From the human T2T-CHM13v2.0 reference genome, Homo sapiens: DNA of 64,000 nucleotides. This document shows, piece by piece, positions 8,514 to 63,587 of this stretch. Made by a program: the position numbers and the translations under genes. Each line of letters opens with the position of its first letter. The first letter of the stretch is position 1. The notes beneath the pieces were generated by a model that searched no databases, had not been told where the DNA came from, and saw nothing but the letters and a program-made list of their open reading frames with translations. The stretch lies in the NCBI RefSeq assembly GCF_009914755.1, contig NC_060939.1. One strand, written 5' to 3'.

Positions 8514-8722
<209 letters not shown>

Positions 8723-45236: not shown

Positions 45237-47762
45237 TTGAATTTGAAGTAGAGATATATGCCAGAAAAAAAGAAAAGAATGAAGACCTGGGCAAGTGGGA
45301 TGTGGCTAAGGCTCAGAAGAAATTTCCTCAGCAAGAGGAAAAAAACACTGACTTCCCCCAAACCAAGCTATGAGTGAAAACTGACACATGCACCGATGAC
45401 ATATACATTTCCCTTAAAGTCTCTTCCTTCTAATTCCCCAAATTTCTCTTTGTGGCTTATATTTTGGGATAGAAATGGAAGCAGAAAGGGCTAATAGGGA
45501 ATTAAAGGTGGAAAAGGCAAGAGAAATAATAATGTCTGGGTATACAGTTGCTGCCTAGCACCTGCTAGGTGAAGGAATGAGAGAGAAAAGAGGAGGCTGA
45601 AAGAGAAAGAGGCTGTGAACTCACTTTATGTTCCTTGAGGGCAGAAACTGTTGTATTCTCCTCTTTTCCCAATTCCAAGTGTTTGCATGGGGCTTTTGCA
45701 TTTAGAATGCGATTAAATGTTTTTGTTAACTTCGAAGTCAAAGGAGAAACAGAGAGAGAAGGGATGGGTCTAAGGGGGTTGAACTGTTACTCCATCCTAG
45801 ACCCCATGTGACTGGCTCCCTCCATAAGAGCCCGCTCTGCTCACATTTGTACTTTGGACTTAGATCTAAAACTAAAAGCCTGCCCTTCTTTTTTTTTTTT
45901 TTTTTTTTTTGAGACGGAGTCTCGCTCTGTCGCCCAGGCTGGAGTGCAGTGGCACGATCTCGGCTCACTGCAACCTCTGCCTCCGCCTCCAGAGTAGCTG
46001 GGACTACAGGCGCCCGCCACCATGCCCGGCTAATTTTTTTTGTATTTTTTAGTAGAGACGGGGTTTCACAGTCTTAGCCAGGATGGTCTTGATCTCCTGA
46101 CCTCGTGATCCACCCCCCTTGGCCTCCCAAAGGGCTGGGATTACAGGTGTGAGCCACCACGCCCAGCCAAAGCCTGCCCTTCTTCTTATCTATCCATCCT
46201 GGTCTCCCCATTTTAGGGGGGCTCTGGTTTGGCTCTTTCTGCCTTGTGGCCATTTGCCTTGGACTCTTAGCTTTGACCTCTAGGACATGAGGTCCTACAC
46301 CTCATTTTGGCCACTTCCTACCTATCAGGAGGTGACTTGGGCACCATTCTGGACACTAGTCCTTGGCAGGCTCCAGGTTCTCATCTACATGGGTGGAGGT
46401 GGGGAGATACTGTGGTCTGTAATGAGCCACTGCCCTCACTCAGTGTGGTGTGGTGAAGAAAATAGGCTTGGACCCATGAGGGCTTGGCTTACAAATGTTC
46501 CAACTTGAACCTTGGAAAAAAAATTTTGGTACAGCTGTAACTGTGTCAACGAATGTAGTCCAGTGTCATTTTGGGTCTTGCAGTGTGGCAGGTCACTTGT
46601 CCACAGGTACCTGGACCACAGCACTCTCACATCCTGACCAACCACTGCTGGGAAGCTGCCCAGCCCACATGAGCTCCATATTCCAGTCTCAGGAATGGGA
46701 AGACAGCACAGTGAGAGATGCCAAGCTCCGGGGCATCCTCTGTGGAATTGACTGCCACTGCAGGCCCAGGCGCCCGTTACTGGGGAAACCAGTGTTCCCT
46801 GATGCCACCCCCACTGAGCATCCAGAGACCCTGATGCTATCTATTGCCTACTGCCCAGCTGCTGCTAACTCCGCCAGGACTTGCTCTTTCCCAGTGGAAA
46901 ATTCAGCAGACAACATTTCTAGAAATGCTCACACAGCCCCCTTGCTACACAGCCCCTTCTACTTTAGAAAGGACCCACTCCTACCCCAGGAAGACTCCAG
47001 TGTAGTGACCACAACTCTATTCTGTTTCTCCAGGAAACTGTTCTTAGAAGAGGCCTGAAGAGAAACATGACTGACTAGGTAAGATTAGAGGCTATACCAG
47101 ATGTTTGGGTCACTCTCTGGAGGTTCCTGGGGCAGCAAGTAGAAGCTCAGCCAGTACTACGCAAGGGGGCTTTTTCCAAGCCCTTTCAGGGGCCATGTCC
47201 TGGACAGAAACCTACCCTGAGGAGCCAGAGCACTGCGGGCAGGAGAGGAGGACCTGCCTGGAGAAGTCACATCCAGACATACAGCCCGGCAGCTCCTATG
47301 GAAAAGCAGGACTTGAGCAACAGGGGGCAGCAAAGCACAACCGCCTTCTTCAGCTGAGCCCTAGGGCAGCCTTGGGAGGCAGGCAGTGAGGGGCAGGAGA
47401 GTTGGCCCCCCTCTCAGGGGACAGCTGCTTGGCTGGCCAGAGGTAATGGCCAAGTTTGAATCTGAAGTAGAGATATATGCCAGAAAAAAAAAAGAAAAGA
47501 ATGATGCCCTGGGCAAGTGGGATGTGGCTAAGGCTCAGAAGAAATTTCCTCAGCAAGAGTAAAGGGTACACTGACTTCCCCCAACCCAAGTTATGACTGA
47601 AAACTGACACATACACCAATGACATATACATTTTCCCTTAAGTCTCTTCCTTCTAATTCCCCAAATTTCTCTTTGTGGCTCATATTTTGGGATAGAAATG
47701 GAAGCAGAAAGGGAAGGGCTAAGAAGGAATTAGAGGTAGAAAAGGCAAGAAAAATAATAATG
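45237..47762 (+). repeat. ~300-bp direct duplication (45237-45534 and 47456-47762)
   Basis: Both copies read TGAAGTAGAGATATATGCCAG...CCTGGGCAAGTGGGATGTGGCTAAGGCTCAGAAGAAATTTCCTCAGCAAGAG...AATAATAATG; roughly 90% identical by eye. Confidence 0.9.
45891..46168 (-). mobile_element. AluY/Sc-like with ~26-nt internal deletion
   Basis: GGCGCCCGCCACCA and GACCTCGTGATCC diagnostics; 16-bp TSD AAAGCCTGCCCTTCTT at 45875-45890 and 46169-46184. Confidence 0.92.
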
Positions 47763-47932
47763 AGAATAAACCAAATAAAGAGAAATAAACCAAGCTTGCC
47801 CCTTGTTGGTTCCCTCTCTGAATTCTGAAAAATCCTTGTCACAGTCCACAGGGACCTCTGGAATGAGAAGAACTGAGACAGAGAGGCTGGAGTAAAGGAG
47901 CAGCAGACCTCCAGACACATGATGATAGTTAC

Positions 47933-48033
47933 CCTTGCTGATTTCACCCCTTTCTCCGGTCTTACTTCATCCTTGTAGATGGAGCCCCTAAGATACAACA
48001 CTTCATCTTCTTGTTGGGAAAAAGCTGAGTGTT
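47933..48033 (-). other. CYP19A1: Untranslated endothelial exon I.7 (101 nt)
   Basis: Starts AACACTCAGCTTTTTCCCAACA (48033) and ends at donor AAGG|GTAACT (47933/47932), giving 101 nt. No TATA box. Upstream GATA sites at -141/-146 (48174-48179) and -191/-196 (48224-48229) agree with the I.7 architecture as I recall it. An alternative donor lies at 47966/47965. Confidence 0.75.
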
Positions 48034-48609
48034 GGGAAAAAAAGCTGAGGCAGGGCTTGCATGTCTGACATAATGTCCAGGGCTCAGTGCATAAAACCCC
48101 TCGTGGCCTCTGGAATGAGTCTAGACTTGCTGGCTCCTTGCTTCTAGCTTAAACTGGAAGAACATGCTCCCTATTATCTCAAGTAGCAGAATATGTTCCA
48201 TATGCTTCAAAGGAAATGCTAAACTATCACAGCTGTAGATCATGTGCTTGCCCTTTTGACCCACACATTCTCACCACCTGTTTCTTTGTTTGACCACCAA
48301 TAAATAGTCTGGGCTTCCAGAGCTCAGGGCCTTCACAGCCTCCATACTTGCGTTGGCCACCTGGACCCACTTTCTCTCTCAAACTGTCTTTTCTCTTTCC
48401 TTTGACTCTGCCAGACTTCGTTGCCCCAAGGCCTGGTGTTGGATCTGATCACCCCAACATTCCTGGCTGCCCAACGTGGGGCGACAAAGGCCCTGGTGAA
48501 GGAACACTAGAGCATGTGAAAGCAGGGGATGCATTGTCAAAGGACACCCAAGGATGACTAAAGGAAGCTTGGTGGGAAAGCTGAGGGCTCGGAAGAACCA
48601 GGGTAACAA

Positions 48610-49662
48610 CAGGACAAAGTGAAAGCAAATATTCTGCTTATTTAAGTTTCTTAAGGCATTTATTATGAAGAGTGGGGGTGAAAGTTAGTACTCAGAATTT
48701 GTTATCACTCTTTAGTACGGTAAAGGAGTTTTGCCCATGGTTCCTGGAACAAGGGACTATGGAGTTGGATGAATGGGAGATAATTGGCAGAGATTTTAAA
48801 AAGGCGTATAAAGATGGAGCAAAAATTCCAGTTTTTTTTGGTCAATGTGAGTGATAATAAAGGCAGCTTTTGAGCCATTTCAAACAGATGATGAGGTAGA
48901 TTCAGATGAGGAAGAGGAGGACGAGTGTAAAGAACTAATTTCAGATTCTGAATGTGAGGAACAGAAACCGGAGGAAATTAAAGAAAGGGAAACTGAAAGA
49001 AGTATGTTTTACTAGCCCGTTGGCTCCACCTGCTGAATTAAGTGAATGGCCACCTCTTCTCTCTCCCATTAATGGGCGAGAAAATGAATTAGCTGAAAAA
49101 CACCACTCCTGTAGTTGCAACATTAAAACCTGGAGCAATTGGTGGTGCTATACAAAATTCTATTCAAAAAGCTAGAGCCGAGGGAGACCTTGAAGTATGG
49201 CAATTTCCCATTACTATAATCCAGCAAGGAGGGAAGGAATTCAAGCAAGCCATTACTCTGAATACGTTAAGGCTTGCGATGGCATTGGAGGTAACTTACA
49301 TAAGGCTACTCTTTCAGCTCAGGCTATGGCTGGATTAAGAGTAGGAAAGAATATGCCCCATTTCTCAGGCTCTTGTTCCAATTGTCGGCAATTTGGACAC
49401 AAAAAAGGAATGTAGAAAAGGAAATCAAAAGGCAAGAACTACTACCGTCAATCAACAGAAAAGCCCTGGTGTATGCCCCCATTGTAAAAAAGGCAATCAC
49501 TGGGCAAATCAGTGTCGTTCTAAAGATGGACAACCTCTTTCAGGAAATGGGAAGAGTGGCCCACCTCAGGCCCCTCAACAAACCGAGGCATACCCGGCAC
49601 AGCCAGTGCCCTCACAAGCGTACAACAATTGTCCCCTGCCACAGCAGGCAGTGTTGCCATAG
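48610..49662 (+). pseudogene. HERV-K gag remnant (MA and NC; most of CA missing)
   Basis: Start codon lost (ACA GGA CAA AGT GAA); GVKVSTQNLLSLFSTVKEFCPWFLEQGT matrix motif; zinc knuckle CPHCKKGNHWANQC; stops and frameshifts. Confidence 0.85.
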
Positions 49663-50395
49663 ACCTTTGCAGCACAATTACCATCTCCCTGTTTCCTGGG
49701 GAGCTGCCAAAAAAGGTCCCTACGGGAGTTAGAGGACGCTTATCCTCAGGAACAGTTGGTCTATTACTTGGAAGGTCTAGTCTAAATTTGAAAGGTGTTG
49801 CTGTGCATACAGGAATAATTGACTCTGATTATACCAGAGAAATTCAATTAGTTATTAGTTCCTCAACTCTGTGGTCTGCCTCCCCAGGAGAAAGAATTGC
49901 TCAGTTGCTGCTGCTACCCTAAACAAAACTAGGAAGCAGCACAGTGAAAGAACAGGCGACTTTGGTAGTACTAATCCTGCAGGAAAGGCTGTATATTGGG
50001 TTAATCAAGTGTCTGACAAAAGACCTATTTGCATAGTGACTATTTAGGGAAAGGATTTTGAAGGACTAGTAGATACTGGAGCTGATGTCTCTATTATTGC
50101 TCTAAATCAATGACCCCGACACTGGCCCAAACAAAAGGCTTCCATGGGTATCATTGGCGTAGGAACCGCCTCAGAGGTTTTTCACAGTTCCTTGATTTTA
50201 CCATGTCAAGGACTGGATGGCCAGGAAGGGACAATTCAGTCTATTATTACACCTATTCCTGTCAATTTATGGGGAAGAGACTTATTGCAACAATGGGATG
50301 CTGAAATATCTATTCCTATGGATCAATATAGTAATAATAGTAGACAAATGATGAGAAATATGGGATATCGACTTGGAGAAGGACCAGGAATATAA
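49629..50395 (+). pseudogene. HERV-K dUTPase-protease remnant
   Basis: AGSVAIDLC, GRSSLNLKG, GIIDSDY and GERIAQLLL dUTPase motifs; protease GLVDTGADVSII (~50063-50098) and NLWGRDLL; premature stops. Confidence 0.85.
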
Positions 50396-50399
50396 GACA

Positions 50400-50886
50400 C
50401 TGCATATGTAATTGCATTTAGCTTTATTAACATTAAAATTTTTAAATTTACAAAAAGATCAACCCATAACTGCAGTGAAACAACACCTAACAGGACAAAA
50501 GGAAAATAAAAAGGCTGGACAAGATACATGGTGGAGGAATGCACATACAAAGAGCTGGGAAAAAGGAAAGATAATTATATGGGGAAGAAGATTTGCTTGT
50601 GTCTCTCCAGGTGACAATCAGGTGCCTGTGTGGGTGCCCACCAAACATCTGAAGATCTATCATGAGCCACAGCATCTAGCGGACCCACCTGTACAGTGCA
50701 AATTGAAGGTTTGAGAAGCCTCCATTTGCTTTCTCTGTGCCTTCTATTAGAAGGGGCCTGTTTCTCATTATCAGTGGAAAGTTCTACCTCATGGAGATGA
50801 ACGAACCGTGTGGGTGCAATCCCCATAACATGGGGACAGATCAAGAAAACCGCACAGGAAGCTGAGAAACTGCTGGAGCGCCAGGG
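50400..50886 (+). pseudogene. Integrase C-terminus and env leader remnants; RT, RNase H and most of env deleted
   Basis: HLALLTLKFLNL...SWEKGKIIIWGRRFACVSPGDNQVPVWVP (integrase end); PITWGQIKKTAQEAEKLL (env signal-peptide-like). Confidence 0.75.
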
Positions 50887-53800
50887 TTTTACCTACAGAT
50901 GCTTAACGGACCAATGCTTTCTGACTGAGTGCCTCTCTACCCTGAATACAAGAGACCCTAATAGTTAGGCAGGAGTATCATTGCCCCCATTCAGCATGGA
51001 CCTTCATCCTGAAACCCCTAGGATTAAGGGTCCTCTTGTAAAAGGGAAAGGGGAGATACGTGGGAAGCATTCAAACCAGAGCGACTCCATTTTGAATAAG
51101 GGCTAAGAACAATGAAGTTGGATCACCAACTGGCAATCAAAGGCTGCACAGCCTGCAATTGCCTTGCTCAATTAATTTAAAAACAAAAAGAGGCCACCTT
51201 TTATGCTAGTAATAATGATAGCTGTGGCGGTTTTACAAAAAAGAGAAGGGGAAAATGTTGGGAAAAAGCTGAGTGTTGGGAAAAAAGCTGAGGCAGGGTT
51301 TGCATGTCTGACATAATGTCCAGGGCTCGGCGCATAAAACCCCTCGTGGCCTCTGGAATGGGTCTAGACTTGCTGGCTCCTTGCTTCTAGCTTAAACTGG
51401 AAAAACATGCTCCCCATTATCTCAAGTAGGAGAATATATTCCATATGCTTCAAAGGAAATGCTAAACTTTCACAGCTGTAGATCATGCACTTGCCCTTTC
51501 GACCCCCACATTCTCACCACCTGTTTGATCGCCAATAAATAGTCTGGGCTTCCAGAGCTCAGGGCCTTCACAGCCTCCATACTTGCGTTAGCCCACTTGA
51601 TCCGTTTTCTCTCTCAAACTGTGTTTTCTCATTCCTTTGACTCCGCCAGACTTCGTCACCACCAAGGCCTGGTGTTGGATCTGATCACCCCAACATTCTT
51701 TTTTTGGTACCAGTCACCACAGTCTCACTCCTAAACACCTTACTTGCCCCCCATCCAGACGGCACCAGCTTTGTCAGGCATCTGCGTCTCCACATGCATA
51801 CCCACCAGTTCTCCAATAACCACCTAAAGGGAAGGCCAGACCCATTCTACCACTTGGGTTCTTGGGAAAGATTTGCCCTCTCACCCGCAATGGGCCTGAT
51901 CCAACTCTCCAGGAGAAGTCATCTATAACAACTCTACTCCTCTCTCCTGCTGGATCGCCCCTTCTCTCCCTTGCTCTCTCTTTTTACCCCTGCCACAGAA
52001 AACCTGGCTTCCTTCCTCACCCAAATCCCCAGAGTTCTGGTCAACACCTCTTATTTGCATATAAATATTCTCTCTTCTACCTCTCCACACATCATAGCTC
52101 AAATCTGGGACAGATGCACATCTTTAGATGAGGGGGGCTAAAATAAAAGCCAGGAAGCACTCAATTAAATTTCTGTCTTCAGGCACTTGTTTGTCTGTTT
52201 CGTTTGTTTGTTCTTTTCCCCTGGAAGGTTGATTCCTATCTGACCCACAGTATGGTACCATCAGCCAGTATGGTACAAAGTGCTTATTCCACTTAGCTCG
52301 TTGCATTTCAAAGCCAAGTGTGCCCTGACTACCAAGCATGTCCAAAGCCCATGGTGTAAGGAAGTCTCCTTGGACAGCACAAAGGGAATCCTCCCCAAGA
52401 AAAACGAAGACCCTTCCACCATGAGTACCCCCTTAAGAAGATACCACCACCTCCTCCATTCTACTCTCACCCCACTCAGGGTTCCCCAGCTGTTTTCATT
52501 CTGCAGATCTGTTGCTTTGTACCTGTGCAGCAAGGCAATCAGATGAAAATCACCCATAAAGAAATAAAAGGCAGGGACCCAAGCATAGGAGGATACATTG
52601 GCTGAAGTACAGGTGAGAAGTTGACCCCTGACCCAGGAGATCTTGAGAGAAGTGAGCCACAGCAGATTCAGAATATACCTCTAGATGGCCTCTAGAGGGG
52701 ACAGGAGGTCACTCTAGTCTTGCTGAGGCTGATTCTAAAAGAAAGAGCTTTTGGCTGAACCTACCCAGCACATTCATCTGTGAGGTGGGTGGCATCAATA
52801 GAGGGCAGGGTTGGCAAGAGTGGAGCCGCCACCAGGTGTCCCACCTGGACATGACTTATCCAATGACAGCTAGTGCACATAGTGATGAGCTCAAGATCTA
52901 AAAATCTAATCTAAAAATAGGACTTTAGGAATGAGCAAGAAAATTTATTAGTCCTTCCCTTCTTGCCTATCTTGTTCTTCCCAGCACCCCTGGACAAGCC
53001 CAGTCAAAACAGTGGAAAATATATCCTTTAAGAAAAAACAACCGAGGCTCCTCAGTCAAGGGAGAAGAAAGCTAAACATTGCTGCGGGGTTCACCCTATT
53101 GTCTCCCACAGGCATTACTAACGCAATGCGAACCTTGATACCTGTGTTCTCTGGCATATCAGGCAGGTCTGCTTGGAATTGGCCCGGAAACAGAGCCCAC
53201 TTGAATTTGGGGCTTCTTCACACCAGGCTGTCTCACATGCTACAAGTGCCACTTCTGAAGCTGTGTGGGCCTCGTCAGCACTCCTGGGCAGCCACAGCTC
53301 AGACATTGGTATCGCTGCTGTGCAGAAGGCAGCCTCTCCCATGCAGGCTTTGTCTCCTGGGCCCAAACACCTTTCCCCCTCCCTCTGCCCTGGCCAGGTC
53401 TCCATCCTACCCTCAAATGCCCTCACCTTCCCTCATGCCCTCCAACCAGTTGTTCAGTTAAGACCCCCAAAGTAATTATTCAACTGAGTCCTGGTTTTCT
53501 TCAATGGTCTGGGGCTAACACTATAAAATGGAACAGAAGTACCACCTCCTTGGTGTCTGACCTGAAGCAGTCCCAGGTTGCCAGCCAATTTTATTGGCAA
53601 CTAAAGTCTATGTGCATCTTACAGCTGAGTTGAAGGTGGAATGTTCAAAAGCTCAATGCCTCAGTGGAAAAATCAATGGGTAAATAAATCTGATATGCAT
53701 AAGCTAAAGAGTATTACTGGAGTAAAATATGAGAATAGAGAGCTGCTTTTGTCTAATACTTTCAAAGCACCATGAGTTTGACTAAATTTCTTAAGGCACT

Positions 53801-59304: not shown

Positions 59305-60780
59305 GCTCTCGCTCTCCCTCTCCCTCTCCCCACGGTCTCCCTCTCCCTCTCTTTCCATGGTCTCCCTCTGATGCCGATCCAAAGCTGGACTGTACTGCTG
59401 CCATCTCGGCTCACTGCAACCTCCCTGCCTGATTCTCCTGCCTCAGCCTGCCCAGTGCCTGCGATTGCAGGCGCGCGCCGCCACGCCTGACTGTTTTTCG
59501 TACTTTTTTGGTGGAGACGGGGTTCCCCTGTGTTGGCCGGGCTGGTCTCCAGCTCCTAATCGCGAGTGATCCGCCAGCCTTGGCCTCACAAGGTGCCGGG
59601 ATTGCAGACGGAGTCTCGTTCACTCACTGCTCAATGGTGCCCAGGCTGGGGTGCAGTGGCGTAATCTCGGCTGGCTACAACCTCCACCTCCCAGCCGCCT
59701 GCCTTGGCCTCCCAATGTGCCAAGACTGCAGCCTCTGCCCGGCCGCCACCCCGTCTGGGAAGTGAGGAGCGTCTCTGCCTGGCCGCCCATCGTCTGGGAT
59801 GTGAGGAGCCCCTCTGCCTGGCTGCCCCGTCTGGAAAGTGAGGAGCGTCTCTGCCCGGCCGCCATCCTGTCTAGGAAGTGAGGAGCGTCTCTGCCCGGCT
59901 GCCCATCGTCTGGGATGTGAGGAGCCCCTCTGCCTGGCTGCCCAGTCTGGAAAGTGAGGAGCGTCTCTGCCCGGCTGCCATCCCATCTAGGAAGTGACGA
60001 GCGCCTCTTCCCGGCCACCATCCCATCTAGGAAGTGAGGAGCGTCTCTGCCCGGCCGCCCATCGTCTGAGATGTGGGGAGCGCCTCTGCCCCGCCGCCCC
60101 GTCTGGGATGTGAGGAGCGCCTCTGCCCGGCCGCGACCCCATCTGGGAGGTGAGGAGTGTCTCTGCCCGGCCGCCCCGTCTGAGAAGTGAGGAGACCCTC
60201 CGCCTGGCAACCGCCCCGTCTGAGAAGTGAGGAGCCCCTCCGCCCGGCAGCTGCCCCGTCTGAGAAGTGAGGAGCCCCTCCGCCCGGCAGCCGCCCCATC
60301 TGGGAAGTGAGGAGCGTCTCCGCCCGGCAGCCGCCCCGTCCGGGAGGGAGGTGGGGGGATCAGCCCCCCGCCCGGCCAGCTGCCCTGTCCGGGAGGGAGG
60401 TGGGGGGGTCAGCCCCCCGCCCGGCCAGCCGCCCCGTCCGGGAGGGAGGTGGGGGGTCAGCCCCCCGCCCGGCCAGCCGCCCCGTCTGGCCAGCCGCCCC
60501 CCGGGAGGGAGGTGAGGGGCGCCTCTGCCCGGCTGCCCCTACTGGGAAGTGAGGAGCCCCTCTGCCCGGCCACCACCCCGTCTGGGAGGTGTACCCAACA
60601 GCTCATTGAGAACGGGCCATGATGACAATGGCGGTTTTGTGGAATAGAAAAGGGGGAAAGGTGGGGAAAAGATTGAGAAATAGGATGGTTGCTGTGTCTG
60701 TGTAGAAAGAGGTAGACATGGGAGACTTTTCATTTTGTTCTGTACTAAGAAAAATTCTTCTGCCTTGGGGAAAAAAAAAA
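59305..60780 (+). mobile_element. SVA retrotransposon (SVA_D-like), polyadenylated within SINE-R
   Basis: CCCTCT hexamers, Alu-like domain, GC-rich VNTR (~59730-60590), partial SINE-R, A tail; 16-bp TSD AAAGAATGCCTGATAC at 59289-59304 and 60781-60796. Confidence 0.95.
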
Positions 60781-63587
60781 AAAGAATGCCTGATACATTG
60801 TATAATGAAACCAGAATAATTGAGCTACTTGTTCATTACAAAGATCTCTAGCTGAATACTCAAAATTCTTCAGCAGCTGAGTGGGCTTGGAGCGAATTAA
60901 CAACGTGTTTTTTTTTTTTTTTTTTTAATTAATTTGAGGTAGGACACAAAATATACAATAGAATTTTTTGTGAAGCACTGCTGAAGGCTTTTTACTCCAA
61001 GAAGGATCATACATTATTCTTTGTTGACAATGCCAGGGTGATTCAGAAGGACAAGTAAAATGTTAGCCAAGGCAATGCACAGGAGCGCAGACCAGCCGCA
61101 CTCCAGCCCCTCTTCTCTCAGTTTCCTTAGGATCCTCTATTACCCGCTCCCCTCCATTCCTAGGCCCAGCCTGTCATTCCTCTCTATGGAGTTACTGCCA
61201 GATTGCCTTGCCTCACTGTAACTGGAACATCAATTTTCCCCATGAATCTGTGAGCCCTGCAAAGTCAGAGACTGTGCCTTGCTAACACCCTAGTCCTCAA
61301 AAGCACACAACAGAGTACTTGACACCCAGGAGGCTCTCAGGAGGCATTGCTGTTGAGTATAGAAAGCTAGAGTTAGGTAAGACATTGTGGAATATCATGG
61401 AAAAATCAGTTGAATGGAATATAATGGAAAAACCAAGTCTAAACTCAGAAAGACAGATGTGGGACAGCACTGAAGCATGGTCTCAGCATCTTCCCATCTC
61501 CTGGGCAGATAAAAGGACATTCAAGTTGAGCTGGGTCCCTCGGGTCCAGTTCTGGATGGCTTCGGGGAGCCAGCCAAGCCCTTCCGTTAGGAAGTCCTGG
61601 CAGCACGGAGGTCTGTGGAGGGCAGAGAAGAGTGAGAAAAGAGAGAAGTGACACAGTCAAATGTGGCCAGACCAGGAAAGGCAGACAAAAAGAATGTTTC
61701 TGGGAGCACATGAACGTTCTCAAGAACACAGACAGGTTGAAGATGACCATGACCAAGGACAGACTCCTGGATTTCCAGAAGCTGCTTGATGATTCTTCCA
61801 TAGATTCCAGAGAAGGGAGGCTAGAAGCTGGATGGCAGGGAGGCCAGAGAGGCTGGGGCCTGGGAAAAAGATTGCATCTTTCTAGAGCCAGCATGAAGGG
61901 GAATAGGCAGGGACAGCAGCAAGCAGAGGCAGGCAAGTCAGTTGGGGGCCAGGGAAGGGGACAGACACGGGAGTTTCATTTTAGCAGTAACCCTCTGGGC
62001 AGGGGTTTTTGTAGAAGAGGCCTTGAGAGAAAGAGTCCGAGGAGAAGAGGAAAACTCCCTGAGACCTGAGGGAAAGAGAAAGAAATGGATGTCGATTTGA
62101 CATGCTTTTGTGAGTGTCCCTCTCCCAAGTCAAGGTGGCAGGTGGGGGCATGACAGGGTTGGAGACCTTCACAATCACTTCTCTGCAGTGTGGGCCCGTC
62201 TCTAAAAAGAACAGACAGGCAGTCATATGGATCCATGGGCCTTTGTCAGAAGGCACTGGCACCTCTAAACTGGTGATCCCCAGCGCCAATCCATGGGGCC
62301 AGTGTACATCCGCGGGAAACTCGCTAAAATTACAGAAAATGAGGTACATTTTTCATAGTGCTAAATTCAGTTTAAAAAGTTGTTCCTTTATGCTGAGATT
62401 TATTCTCCTCACTTTTTTTGGTATTAAAATGCTTCATGTTTGCCGAACATTAAACAATGATGGTAGATCAGAGTTTGAGTTTTTTCCCTCAATGTCCTTA
62501 CTTAGCAAAATTTAAAAATGGTGTTCTTAGTGGGTCCTTCCTCCTACCACCATTTATTTTTCATATTCCTGTTTGTAAAATAAATTATTGGGGAGCAATT
62601 GTTCTAAAACTAATGTTTACAGACCTTTACAGTTTTAAAAAGACAATTTTAAGAAAAATGAAGTATTTTTGAACACCAAAGGGTAGAAGTTTCTGGTTTG
62701 CTTTCCCAGATAGGATTTACAACCTCATGCCAGTGTACCAGTTGGATTGCGAACTGTTTTCTGTGAGGCCCTGGTTAAAAATGAGCAGGAGGCCAAGACT
62801 TTTTGACTCAACTGTTTCCAAAAGGGCCAAGTGACGACTTTTGTGTCCATCTCTCTCCAGAGACACCAATGAACAGGTTTGAGGTGGGAACAGGTTCGCG
62901 CAGCCCTAGGATCCCAGACCTTTAGACCTGGAAGAACTTGAGAATTTATCTTGCCCACATTATTCTGATGGAGCAGATTTACTCAAAGCCATGCAACCAA
63001 CTAGTGGCAGAGCTGAGACAGGCCCAGACTCCAAACAGCCCGGCCAGCCCTCTCCCTCATCTCCACATGCCCCCATGCTTAGGTTTACACCAGCCTCCTC
63101 TTTAACAGATGAGCCTCAAGCCAAACGATAGCTGCTTTTGCCCAGCATGCTAGGTCCACCGGGGGAGACAGAGTCCCATGGAGTAAAGTGCATTTTCTCC
63201 TTTGTCATAATGGCTGTTTGCCTCAAGCGTTCAATGCCTTCCTGATTGTGTGACTCAGAGCTGCTTGCTGCAGCCTCTCATTCCCCTCCAAGAGGGGCTT
63301 CTCTTTCAATGACCCAGGGGTCAGTTCTAAGACCCAGGCTCCCATAAGCTACCTCAGCTTCCATGATTTCAATAAGGCTTTCCTGCAGACACCCCCAGTG
63401 CTCTGCTCTGCTCCCTCCCCTGTCTCCCTCCCTGCTCAATGCCTACTGCAGTAGGGGTATCTTGTTTCTAGTAAACTCTACCTGGTGTGGGTCCCAAATC
63501 TCCTATATTGGCAATAAAATTCTCATTGTAGTCTCCTTGTAGTCAAACCTGTTCATTGGTGTTTCTGGAGAGATTCACTGTAGGCAT

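What the first reader, a model, noticed from the sequence alone, without database searches (positions are those of the whole stretch)
47933..48459. Aromatase promoter I.7 appears to be the antisense side of a HERV-K14 5' LTR
Seen: the inferred I.7 start (48033) is 22 nt inside the LTR that begins at 48012. The exon runs out of the LTR into unique flank that supplies the splice donor, so all proximal upstream promoter sequence is LTR. Recalled knowledge: I.7 is a TATA-less, GATA-dependent endothelial promoter that is raised in breast cancer, with a 101-nt exon; the LTR origin usually cited for CYP19A1 is placental I.1 (MER21A). Inference: I.7 is a second, independent and younger retroviral promoter exaptation in the same gene, which could explain its activation in tumours through LTR de-repression. 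I do not recall this link being emphasised, but cannot confirm it is new.
Basis: partly seen in the sequence, partly recalled or inferred. Interest (0 to 1): 0.85.

Follow-up and report, generated by a model that had tools for sequence, protein, structure and literature searches.

The report
Aromatase promoter I.7 is retroviral LTR
The start site and the whole proximal promoter of first exon I.7 of the human aromatase gene (used in endothelium and breast cancer) lie in the backwards-read 5' LTR of a broken HERV-K14 (HML-1) provirus, which would be a second retroviral promoter in a gene already known for one.

Summary
A 3.7-kb deleted betaretrovirus-like provirus lies on the + strand at 48012-51695. 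It has a 5' LTR (48012-48459), a Lys-type PBS, remnants of gag, dUTPase, protease and integrase, a polypurine tract, and a 3' LTR (51256-51695). CYP19A1 runs on the - strand. The RefSeq exon I.7 (47933-48033) starts at the 22nd base of the LTR. Its other 79 nt and the GT donor lie in single-copy host DNA. All 426 nt upstream of the start are LTR, including the RefSeq promoter fragment (-299/+81).

The HERV-K14 (HML-1, LTR14A/B) label is supported by a published HML1 description and consensus. HML-9 and HML-10 anchor proviruses do not match.

Two GATA motifs lie on the gene strand. AGATAA at -146/-141 is a family trait (24 of 30 copies). TGATAG at -196/-191 is rare (3 of 151 copies).

The LTRs differ by K2P 0.067, roughly 17-26 Myr. 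The LTR has only 3 CpGs, so tumour activation by demethylation is not favoured by the sequence.

Six strict full-text searches found no open paper linking I.7 to an LTR. Verdict: a real feature, a new member of a known kind (LTR-derived alternative promoter, antisense), of moderate interest.

Novelty: no open full-text paper links I.7 to an LTR, retrovirus or transposon. Subscription papers and supplementary tables were not searched.

The parts
47931..47932 (-). GT splice donor of exon I.7 (gene-strand context GCAAGG|GTAACT), in single-copy host DNA
   Evidence: flank single copy
47933..48033 (-). CYP19A1 untranslated first exon I.7 (101 nt). 47933-48011 is host DNA and 48012-48033 is LTR. The start at 48033 is an A preceded by C.
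   Evidence: hub gene table. A published pI.7 forward primer starts at 48033 and the reverse primer lies at 47934-47953.
48012..48459 (+). 5' LTR (448 nt) of a HERV-K14/HML-1 provirus. Read in antisense it is the I.7 promoter. The RefSeq promoter feature 47953-48332 equals -299/+81.
   Evidence: hub table
48174..48179 (-). GATA motif AGATAA at -146/-141, present at the same place in 24 of 30 family LTR copies
48224..48229 (-). GATA motif TGATAG at -196/-191, a rare variant (1 of 30 aligned copies; 3 of 151 genome-wide frame matches). The T at 48225 is shared with the 3' LTR, which has since lost the motif.
48299..48304 (+). AATAAA of the LTR in proviral sense (-271/-266 on the gene strand)
48464..48482 (+). 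Primer-binding site of the Lys type. It equals the PBS of the two HERV-K(C4) copies except for one inserted T.
   Evidence: PMC9178832 passage on the Lys PBS of 15q21.1
48460..51255 (+). Deleted proviral interior: Gag_p10 (48669-48854), zinc knuckle (49345-49662), dUTPase (49524-49922), protease (50114-50395), integrase C-terminus (50412-50714). Compared with the closest copy it lacks about 600 bp of gag (junction 49232/49258), about 2.3 kb from the end of pro to the integrase core (about 50390), and about 138 bp (50793). There is no env.
51237..51255 (+). Polypurine tract
51256..51695 (+). 3' LTR (440 nt). It shares 5 derived sites with the 5' LTR.

Best explanation
An env-less HERV-K14 (HML-1) provirus inserted about 39 kb upstream of CYP19A1 exon II, opposite in orientation to the gene, roughly 17-26 million years ago. 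Read backwards, the U3 end of its 5' LTR acts as a TATA-less promoter. Two GATA motifs (-146/-141 and -196/-191) and the rest of the -299/-1 region are LTR sequence. RNA polymerase II starts at a CA 22 nt before the outer LTR edge and runs into host DNA. After 79 nt it meets a pre-existing GT donor and splices to the common acceptor of exon II, so the coding sequence is unchanged.

Shown here: the anatomy, the family, the copy-number contrast and the origin of the motifs.

Taken from annotation or recalled literature: the start site, the activity of the -299/+81 fragment, and dependence on GATA-2.

Inferred: that the LTR is necessary for I.7.
For: - The LTR pair, PBS, PPT and gag-pro-IN remnants define a + strand provirus whose 5' LTR spans 48012-48459.
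- The RefSeq exon I.7 starts at 48033. The RefSeq promoter element 47953-48332 is LTR for all of its upstream 299 nt (hub table).
- The published pI.7 forward primer is an exact match to 48033->48013 (PMC6637960 passage).
- The LTR has at least 30 scored relatives out of 459 candidates. The exon's flank and the neighbouring I.5 and I.f promoter regions are single copy.
- WGATAR occurs twice on the gene strand within -299..-1, and there is no TATAWA.
- AGATAA is present in 24 of 30 family copies.
- Family: a Vargiu 2016 supplement states that HML1 = HERVK14, with LTR14A,B, PBS K, 2 zinc fingers, G-patch+ and dUTPase+. Its printed HML1 consensus shares, by eye, exact strings of 22-28 nt with this LTR, and its Gag consensus matches the zinc-knuckle ORFs.
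Against: - No transcript, CAGE, chromatin or cross-species data could be examined. The start site rests on RefSeq and on a primer that probably derives from the same original cDNA.
- Two 6-nt GATA motifs in 299 nt are not improbable by chance (about 0.6 expected on both strands). Their function is taken from a 2002 paper that I could not read.
- There is no solid sign of selection on the 5' LTR. Lineage changes are 7-11 (5' LTR) against 16-19 (3' LTR), with p from 0.019 to 0.34 depending on the outgroup. Inside the promoter the counts are 6 against 8. Six of the 3' LTR changes sit in one 16-nt cluster.
- The target-site duplication is imperfect.
Confidence: 0.8

Rival explanations
1. The promoter and start site existed in host DNA before the insertion. 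The provirus landed beside them and is a passenger.
For: 79 of the exon's 101 nt and the donor are single-copy host DNA. No sign of constraint on the LTR promoter part.
Against: The annotated start is inside the LTR. Every base from -1 to -426 is LTR, including the whole upstream part of the RefSeq promoter fragment (hub table). An older promoter would have been pushed 3.7 kb away by the insertion.
Confidence: 0.06
2. The annotated start is a truncated cDNA end. Transcription begins deeper in the LTR or in the proviral interior, in antisense, so the true core promoter is elsewhere in the provirus.
For: The start rests on one RefSeq exon. The published qPCR amplicon lies entirely inside that exon and cannot locate a start.
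Against: The RefSeq promoter element with boundaries -299/+81 implies a tested fragment (hub table). The start is a CA dinucleotide. Even on this reading the promoter would still be retroviral.
Confidence: 0.1
3. On the tumour part only: the rise of I.7 in breast cancer reflects more endothelial cells or more GATA-2 activity (angiogenesis), not epigenetic release of the LTR.
For: The LTR is CpG-poor, with 3 CpGs, observed/expected 0.12, and only one (48102) within -299..-1. This leaves little substrate for switching by DNA methylation. I.7 is described as the endothelial-specific promoter (PMC6637960 passages).
Against: Silencing by histone marks or KRAB zinc-finger proteins needs no CpGs. Nothing here tests either reading.
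Confidence: 0.5

Closest known systems
CYP19A1 placental promoter I.1 derived from a MER21A LTR (van de Lagemaat et al. 2003, as cited in PMC7786948; passage seen)
   Same: Same gene. An LTR supplies an alternative untranslated first exon and a tissue-specific promoter that splices to exon II.
   Different: A different, unrelated LTR family at a different site (outside this window), with a different tissue (placenta rather than endothelium and tumour). Here the LTR is used in antisense and still belongs to a two-LTR provirus. The orientation and age of MER21A were not examined here.
Bidirectional or antisense ERV LTR promoters, such as DSCR4/DSCR8 from one ERV LTR and the antisense activity of solitary HERV-K LTRs (recalled; no paper read)
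   Same: Transcription of a host gene starts in an LTR on the strand opposite to the proviral sense.
   Different: Sense-strand activity of this LTR was not tested. The start lies at the extreme outer edge of U3.
Onco-exaptation of LTR promoters, such as THE1B-CSF1R in Hodgkin lymphoma (recalled; no paper read)
   Same: LTR-driven transcripts of a growth-relevant gene are raised in tumour tissue.
   Different: I.7 is also a normal endothelial promoter. De-repression is unshown and the LTR is CpG-poor.

Membership tests
LTR-derived alternative promoter of a host gene | The element is a genuine retroviral LTR | tested here: met
   Paired LTRs, TG..CA ends, PBS, PPT and gag/dUTPase/PR/IN remnants; at least 30 scored genomic relatives
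LTR-derived alternative promoter of a host gene | The transcription start of the host transcript lies inside the LTR | tested here: met
   RefSeq exon start 48033 (hub table) against LTR 48012-48459. The primer 5' end falls at the same base. There is no independent CAGE evidence.
LTR-derived alternative promoter of a host gene | Chimeric transcript spliced to canonical coding exons | not testable with these tools
   The GT donor at 47932-47931 and the exon II acceptor at 8722 are present. Splicing itself is known only from annotation.
LTR-derived alternative promoter of a host gene | Promoter activity depends on the LTR sequence | not testable with these tools
   The upstream part of the RefSeq promoter element -299/+81 is wholly LTR (hub table). 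The original paper is not held.
HERV-K14 / HML-1 (LTR14A/B) | LTR and gag match the published HML1 reference | tested here: met
   By-eye comparison with the passages of PMC4724089 supplement files 1-2. Exact shared strings of 22-28 nt, including the tandem start, plus a Gag zinc-knuckle region match. No alignment tool was used, because outside sequence may not be typed into a tool.
HERV-K14 / HML-1 (LTR14A/B) | PBS Lys, two zinc knuckles, dUTPase+, G-patch+ (markers listed in the PMC4724089 supplement) | tested here: met
   PBS. The two Cys-His knuckle motifs are read from the ORFs; Pfam scored only one of them (zf-CCHC_5). dUTPase. G-patch was scored in the closest copy on C4 and only its start remains here.
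HERV-K14 / HML-1 (LTR14A/B) | Distinct from the other groups with '14'-type names (HML-9/LTR14C, HML-10/HERV-K(C4)) | tested here: met
   The interior is 67% identical to the HML-9 15q21.1 provirus and 65% (leader only) to the two HERV-K(C4) copies, against 84-90% to its own family. There is no LTR match to either anchor.
HERV-K14 / HML-1 (LTR14A/B) | Dfam/RepeatMasker assignment, and whether it is LTR14A or LTR14B | not testable with these tools
   No repeat library is on hand. Three length classes of related LTRs were seen (about 448, 415 and 590-640 nt).
Tumour de-repressed LTR (onco-exaptation) | Epigenetic silencing in normal tissue that is released in tumours | not testable with these tools
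   Only sequence is available: 3 CpGs in 448 nt.

The most novel reading that the evidence does not exclude
I.7 exists only in the primates that carry this one HERV-K14 provirus (apes, perhaps Old World monkeys). It became GATA-2-responsive because this copy carries a rare variant (3 of 151 copies) that adds a second GATA site to the family-wide one. Endothelial and tumour-vessel oestrogen synthesis in humans would then be a lineage-specific trait that depends on a retrovirus, and its rise in breast cancer would partly reflect release of the LTR from silencing.
Probability: 0.2. Interest if true: 0.7.

Novelty: new member of a known kind. Interest (0 to 1): 0.5.

Why it matters
CYP19A1 is the textbook case of an LTR-derived tissue-specific promoter (MER21A, placenta). 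A second, unrelated retroviral promoter in the same gene, for the exon reported to be raised in breast cancer, would have three consequences.

- I.7 would be a primate-lineage-specific regulatory gain that is absent from rodents.
- Endothelial aromatase would be tied to ERV biology, including silencing by KRAB zinc-finger proteins and drugs that release ERVs.
- It gives simple tests: presence or absence across primates, and deletion of the LTR.

There is also a practical point. The usual pI.7 forward primer lies wholly in repeated LTR sequence.

Tried and rejected
- **Naming by coordinates.** I searched supplements for the locus in hg38 and hg19 numbers and found 0 hits (PMC12884080; PMC4724089). 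Vargiu's main locus tables are .xls files that cannot be read here.
- **Telescope-style locus names.** 0 papers. '15q21.2' together with 'HML' gave 3 papers, none relevant.
- **Papers not held.** Flockerzi 2005, Pisano 2019, a guessed DOI for Sebastian 2002, PMC5519084 and PMC3286233.
- **TRPC6 fingerprint.** I recalled that some HERV-K14I copies carry pieces of TRPC6 mRNA. I located TRPC6 with PF08344; all 7 matches (22 candidates scored) lie at places fitting TRPC genes or a pseudogene, and none is in a provirus. I dropped the test.
- **LTR14C or LTR14 identity.** Rejected.
- **Selection on the 5' LTR.** The relative-rate asymmetry is not robust.
- **Clean 6-nt target-site duplication.** Not found for this provirus. 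Five solo copies of the family show duplications of 5-6 nt.
- **Neighbouring 300-nt repeat pair (45237-45534 and 47456-47762) as a second LTR element.** Rejected. There are only these two copies in the genome, and the interior is single copy apart from an Alu-sized, highly repeated stretch.

Full report
**What is at the site**

Direct-repeat search found two long copies, 48035-48283/51278-51526 (94%) and 48287-48421/51522-51656 (91%). Alignment and reading of the ends give a 448-nt copy at 48012-48459 and a 440-nt copy at 51256-51695. Both begin TG and end CA, and both open with the same 18-nt tandem duplication. The two differ at 28 of 439 aligned sites (19 transitions, 9 transversions) plus 10 gap columns, giving K2P 0.067.

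Directly after the first copy lies a primer-binding site (48464-48482). It equals the PBS of the two HERV-K(C4) copies except for one inserted T, and it is close to that of the HML-9 provirus at 15q21.1, whose PBS is described as lysine-type (PMC9178832, passage). A purine tract (51237-51255) precedes the second copy.

Of 10 stop-to-stop reading-frame pieces of the interior, 5 match Pfam families in proviral order on the + strand: Gag_p10 (E 3.5e-15), zf-CCHC_5 (3.2e-12), dUTPase (1.1e-17), RVP (5.6e-13) and IN_DBD_C (7.5e-5). This is a betaretrovirus-like provirus on the + strand, and 48012-48459 is its 5' LTR.

**Relation to exon I.7**

The hub's RefSeq table places a CYP19A1 alternative first exon at 47933-48033 on the - strand. 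Its start is therefore the 22nd base of the LTR, read in antisense. The other 79 nt and the GT donor (47932-47931, context GCAAGG|GTAACT) lie outside the LTR.

The flank 47763-48011 has one copy in the genome. Upstream of the start, 426 nt are LTR. The RefSeq promoter element 47953-48332 equals -299/+81, so its entire upstream part is LTR.

A published pI.7 RT-PCR forward primer is an exact match to 48033->48013, and also to the 3' LTR at 51277->51257. The reverse primer matches 47934-47953 (PMC6637960, passages). The start lies 39,311 nt from the 5' end of exon II.

As controls, the neighbouring first exons I.5 and I.f, with about 300 nt upstream of each, are single copy. The LTR, by contrast, has 64 matches from 40 scored of 459 candidates.

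**Family**

The window's own assembly could be searched. LTR relatives fall into three length classes:
- about 448 nt, 90-94% identical, 9 copies including the two here;
- about 415 nt;
- about 590-640 nt, with an insert after LTR position 65.

The interior is 84-90% identical to more than 35 other proviral loci. The closest is a 6.8-kb provirus on chromosome 4. Of its 20 frame pieces, 13 match Pfam families: gag p10, p24 N and C, zinc knuckle, dUTPase, protease, G-patch, RT, RT thumb, RNase H and all three integrase domains. None is an env family, and only about 770 nt separate the integrase from the 3' LTR. Several other loci show the same direct junction of integrase end and pre-LTR region.

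Compared with that relative, the provirus here lacks about 600 bp of gag, about 2.3 kb from the end of pro to the integrase core, and about 138 bp.

Anchors taken from print:
- The HML-9 provirus at 15q21.1 (PMC9178832, Table 1 passage) is only 67% identical to the interior, with no LTR match.
- Two hits about 33 kb apart in the MHC stretch that I tiled for the C4 genes, which I take to be the HERV-K(C4) copies, match only the leader, at 65%.

So this is neither HML-9 nor HML-10.

Positive evidence comes from the supplement of Vargiu et al. 2016 (PMC4724089; passages of files 1 and 2). It states that HML1 equals RepBase HERVK14, that its LTR is LTR14A,B, and that its markers are PBS K, two zinc fingers, G-patch+ and dUTPase+. 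The HML1 consensus printed there shares with this LTR, by eye, the tandem start and exact strings of 22-28 nt, and its Gag consensus matches the zinc-knuckle frames here. I could not align it with a tool, and I cannot say whether the LTR is 14A or 14B.

**Promoter content**

On the gene strand within -299..-1 there are two WGATAR motifs, AGATAA at -146/-141 and TGATAG at -196/-191. There is no TATAWA and no GC box.

In an alignment of 30 LTR copies, the first motif is intact in 24, so it came with the family.

The second motif is present in only 1 of the 30. Genome-wide, 151 places match its 18-nt frame with either pyrimidine and either purine at the two variable positions, and 3 of them carry the GATA-forming variant: this LTR, one on chromosome 2 and one on chromosome 16. 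The T that creates it (48225) is one of 5 derived sites shared by both LTRs of this provirus, so it was present at integration. The 3' LTR later lost the motif through a change at the neighbouring base.

I recall that the 2002 description of I.7 attributes activity to GATA-2 and a -299/-35 fragment. I could not read that paper, so which site matters is open. Two such motifs in 299 nt are not in themselves improbable.

**Age and selection**

With the formula printed in PMC9178832 (T = D/0.2/2; passage), K2P 0.067 gives about 17 Myr. With a slower recalled rate of 0.13% per Myr it gives about 26 Myr. The insertion thus dates to around or after the split of apes and Old World monkeys. No primate genome was available to check this.

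The 5' LTR has fewer lineage-specific changes than the 3' LTR: 7-11 against 16-19, with p from 0.019 to 0.34 over seven outgroups. Inside -299..-1 the counts are 6 against 8. Six of the 3' LTR changes sit in one 16-nt cluster, and six involve CpGs. I take this as no solid evidence of constraint.

The target-site duplication is unclear. The flanks read TCTTCT and TTCTTT, with only TTCT shared, while five solo copies of the family show duplications of 5-6 nt. The five shared derived sites argue that the two LTRs nevertheless belong to one provirus.

**The tumour idea**

The 5' LTR has 3 CpGs (observed/expected 0.12), and only one of them lies within -299..-1. DNA demethylation therefore has little to act on. 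Silencing through histone marks is not excluded. An equally good reading is that I.7 rises with the number of endothelial cells or with GATA-2 activity.

**Is it in print?**

Strict full-text searches gave the following:
- 'aromatase' + 'promoter I.7' + 'LTR': 0 papers;
- 'CYP19A1' + 'LTR14': 0;
- 'I.7' + 'aromatase' + 'retrovir': 1, a general cancer review in which I.7 occurs only in a reference title;
- 'I.7' + 'CYP19' + 'LTR': 0;
- 'I.7' + 'CYP19' + 'transpos': 1, where the word is 'transposase' in ATAC-seq;
- a looser search was uninformative.

A 2021 review of exapted TEs names only MER21A for this gene (PMC7786948, passage).

The library lacks most subscription journals. Supplementary tables are not searched, and bioRxiv supplements are closed. 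The overlap would be visible in any RepeatMasker track, so a listing in a TE-promoter catalogue is quite possible.

**Verdict**

The exaptation reading is well founded anatomically (confidence 0.8). The de-repression idea is untested and not favoured by the sequence. This is a new member of a known kind, of moderate interest.

Noticed in passing
45237-45534 and 47456-47762: A 300-nt segment is repeated 2.2 kb apart at 90% identity. It ends 171 nt from the I.7 donor. These are its only two copies in the genome, and the stretch between them is single copy except for an Alu-sized, highly repeated piece (about 45886-46171). It is a local duplication, not an LTR element.
   Followed up: yes
47934-48033 and 51257-51277: Both primers of the published pI.7 qPCR assay lie inside exon I.7, so the amplicon cannot tell spliced mRNA from genomic DNA or unspliced RNA. 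The forward primer lies wholly in LTR sequence and also matches the 3' LTR exactly. Specificity rests on the reverse primer alone.
   Followed up: partly
59668-60591 (within the NCBI-masked 59306-60794): A GC-rich array of about 40-nt units (repeat families D1-D3 and D7) overlaps the last exon of MIR4713HG (59385-59683). From memory it looks like the VNTR of an SVA element.
   Followed up: no
G000:C12:48469450-48471966: A gag-pro stretch 84-86% identical to this HML-1 provirus lies about 39 kb (in raw numbers, across two different assemblies) from where PMC9178832 lists an 'HML-9' pro-pol fragment at 12q13.11. This may be a mosaic provirus or a mixed assignment.
   Followed up: no
3' LTR, opposite 48355-48370 of the 5' LTR: Six substitutions private to the 3' LTR fall within 16 nt, probably one complex event. 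The 3' LTR also keeps 9 CpGs against 3 in the 5' LTR.
   Followed up: partly
48012-51695: The whole provirus is left unmasked in NCBI's soft-masked file (hub table), so masking alone would not flag this promoter as a repeat.
   Followed up: no
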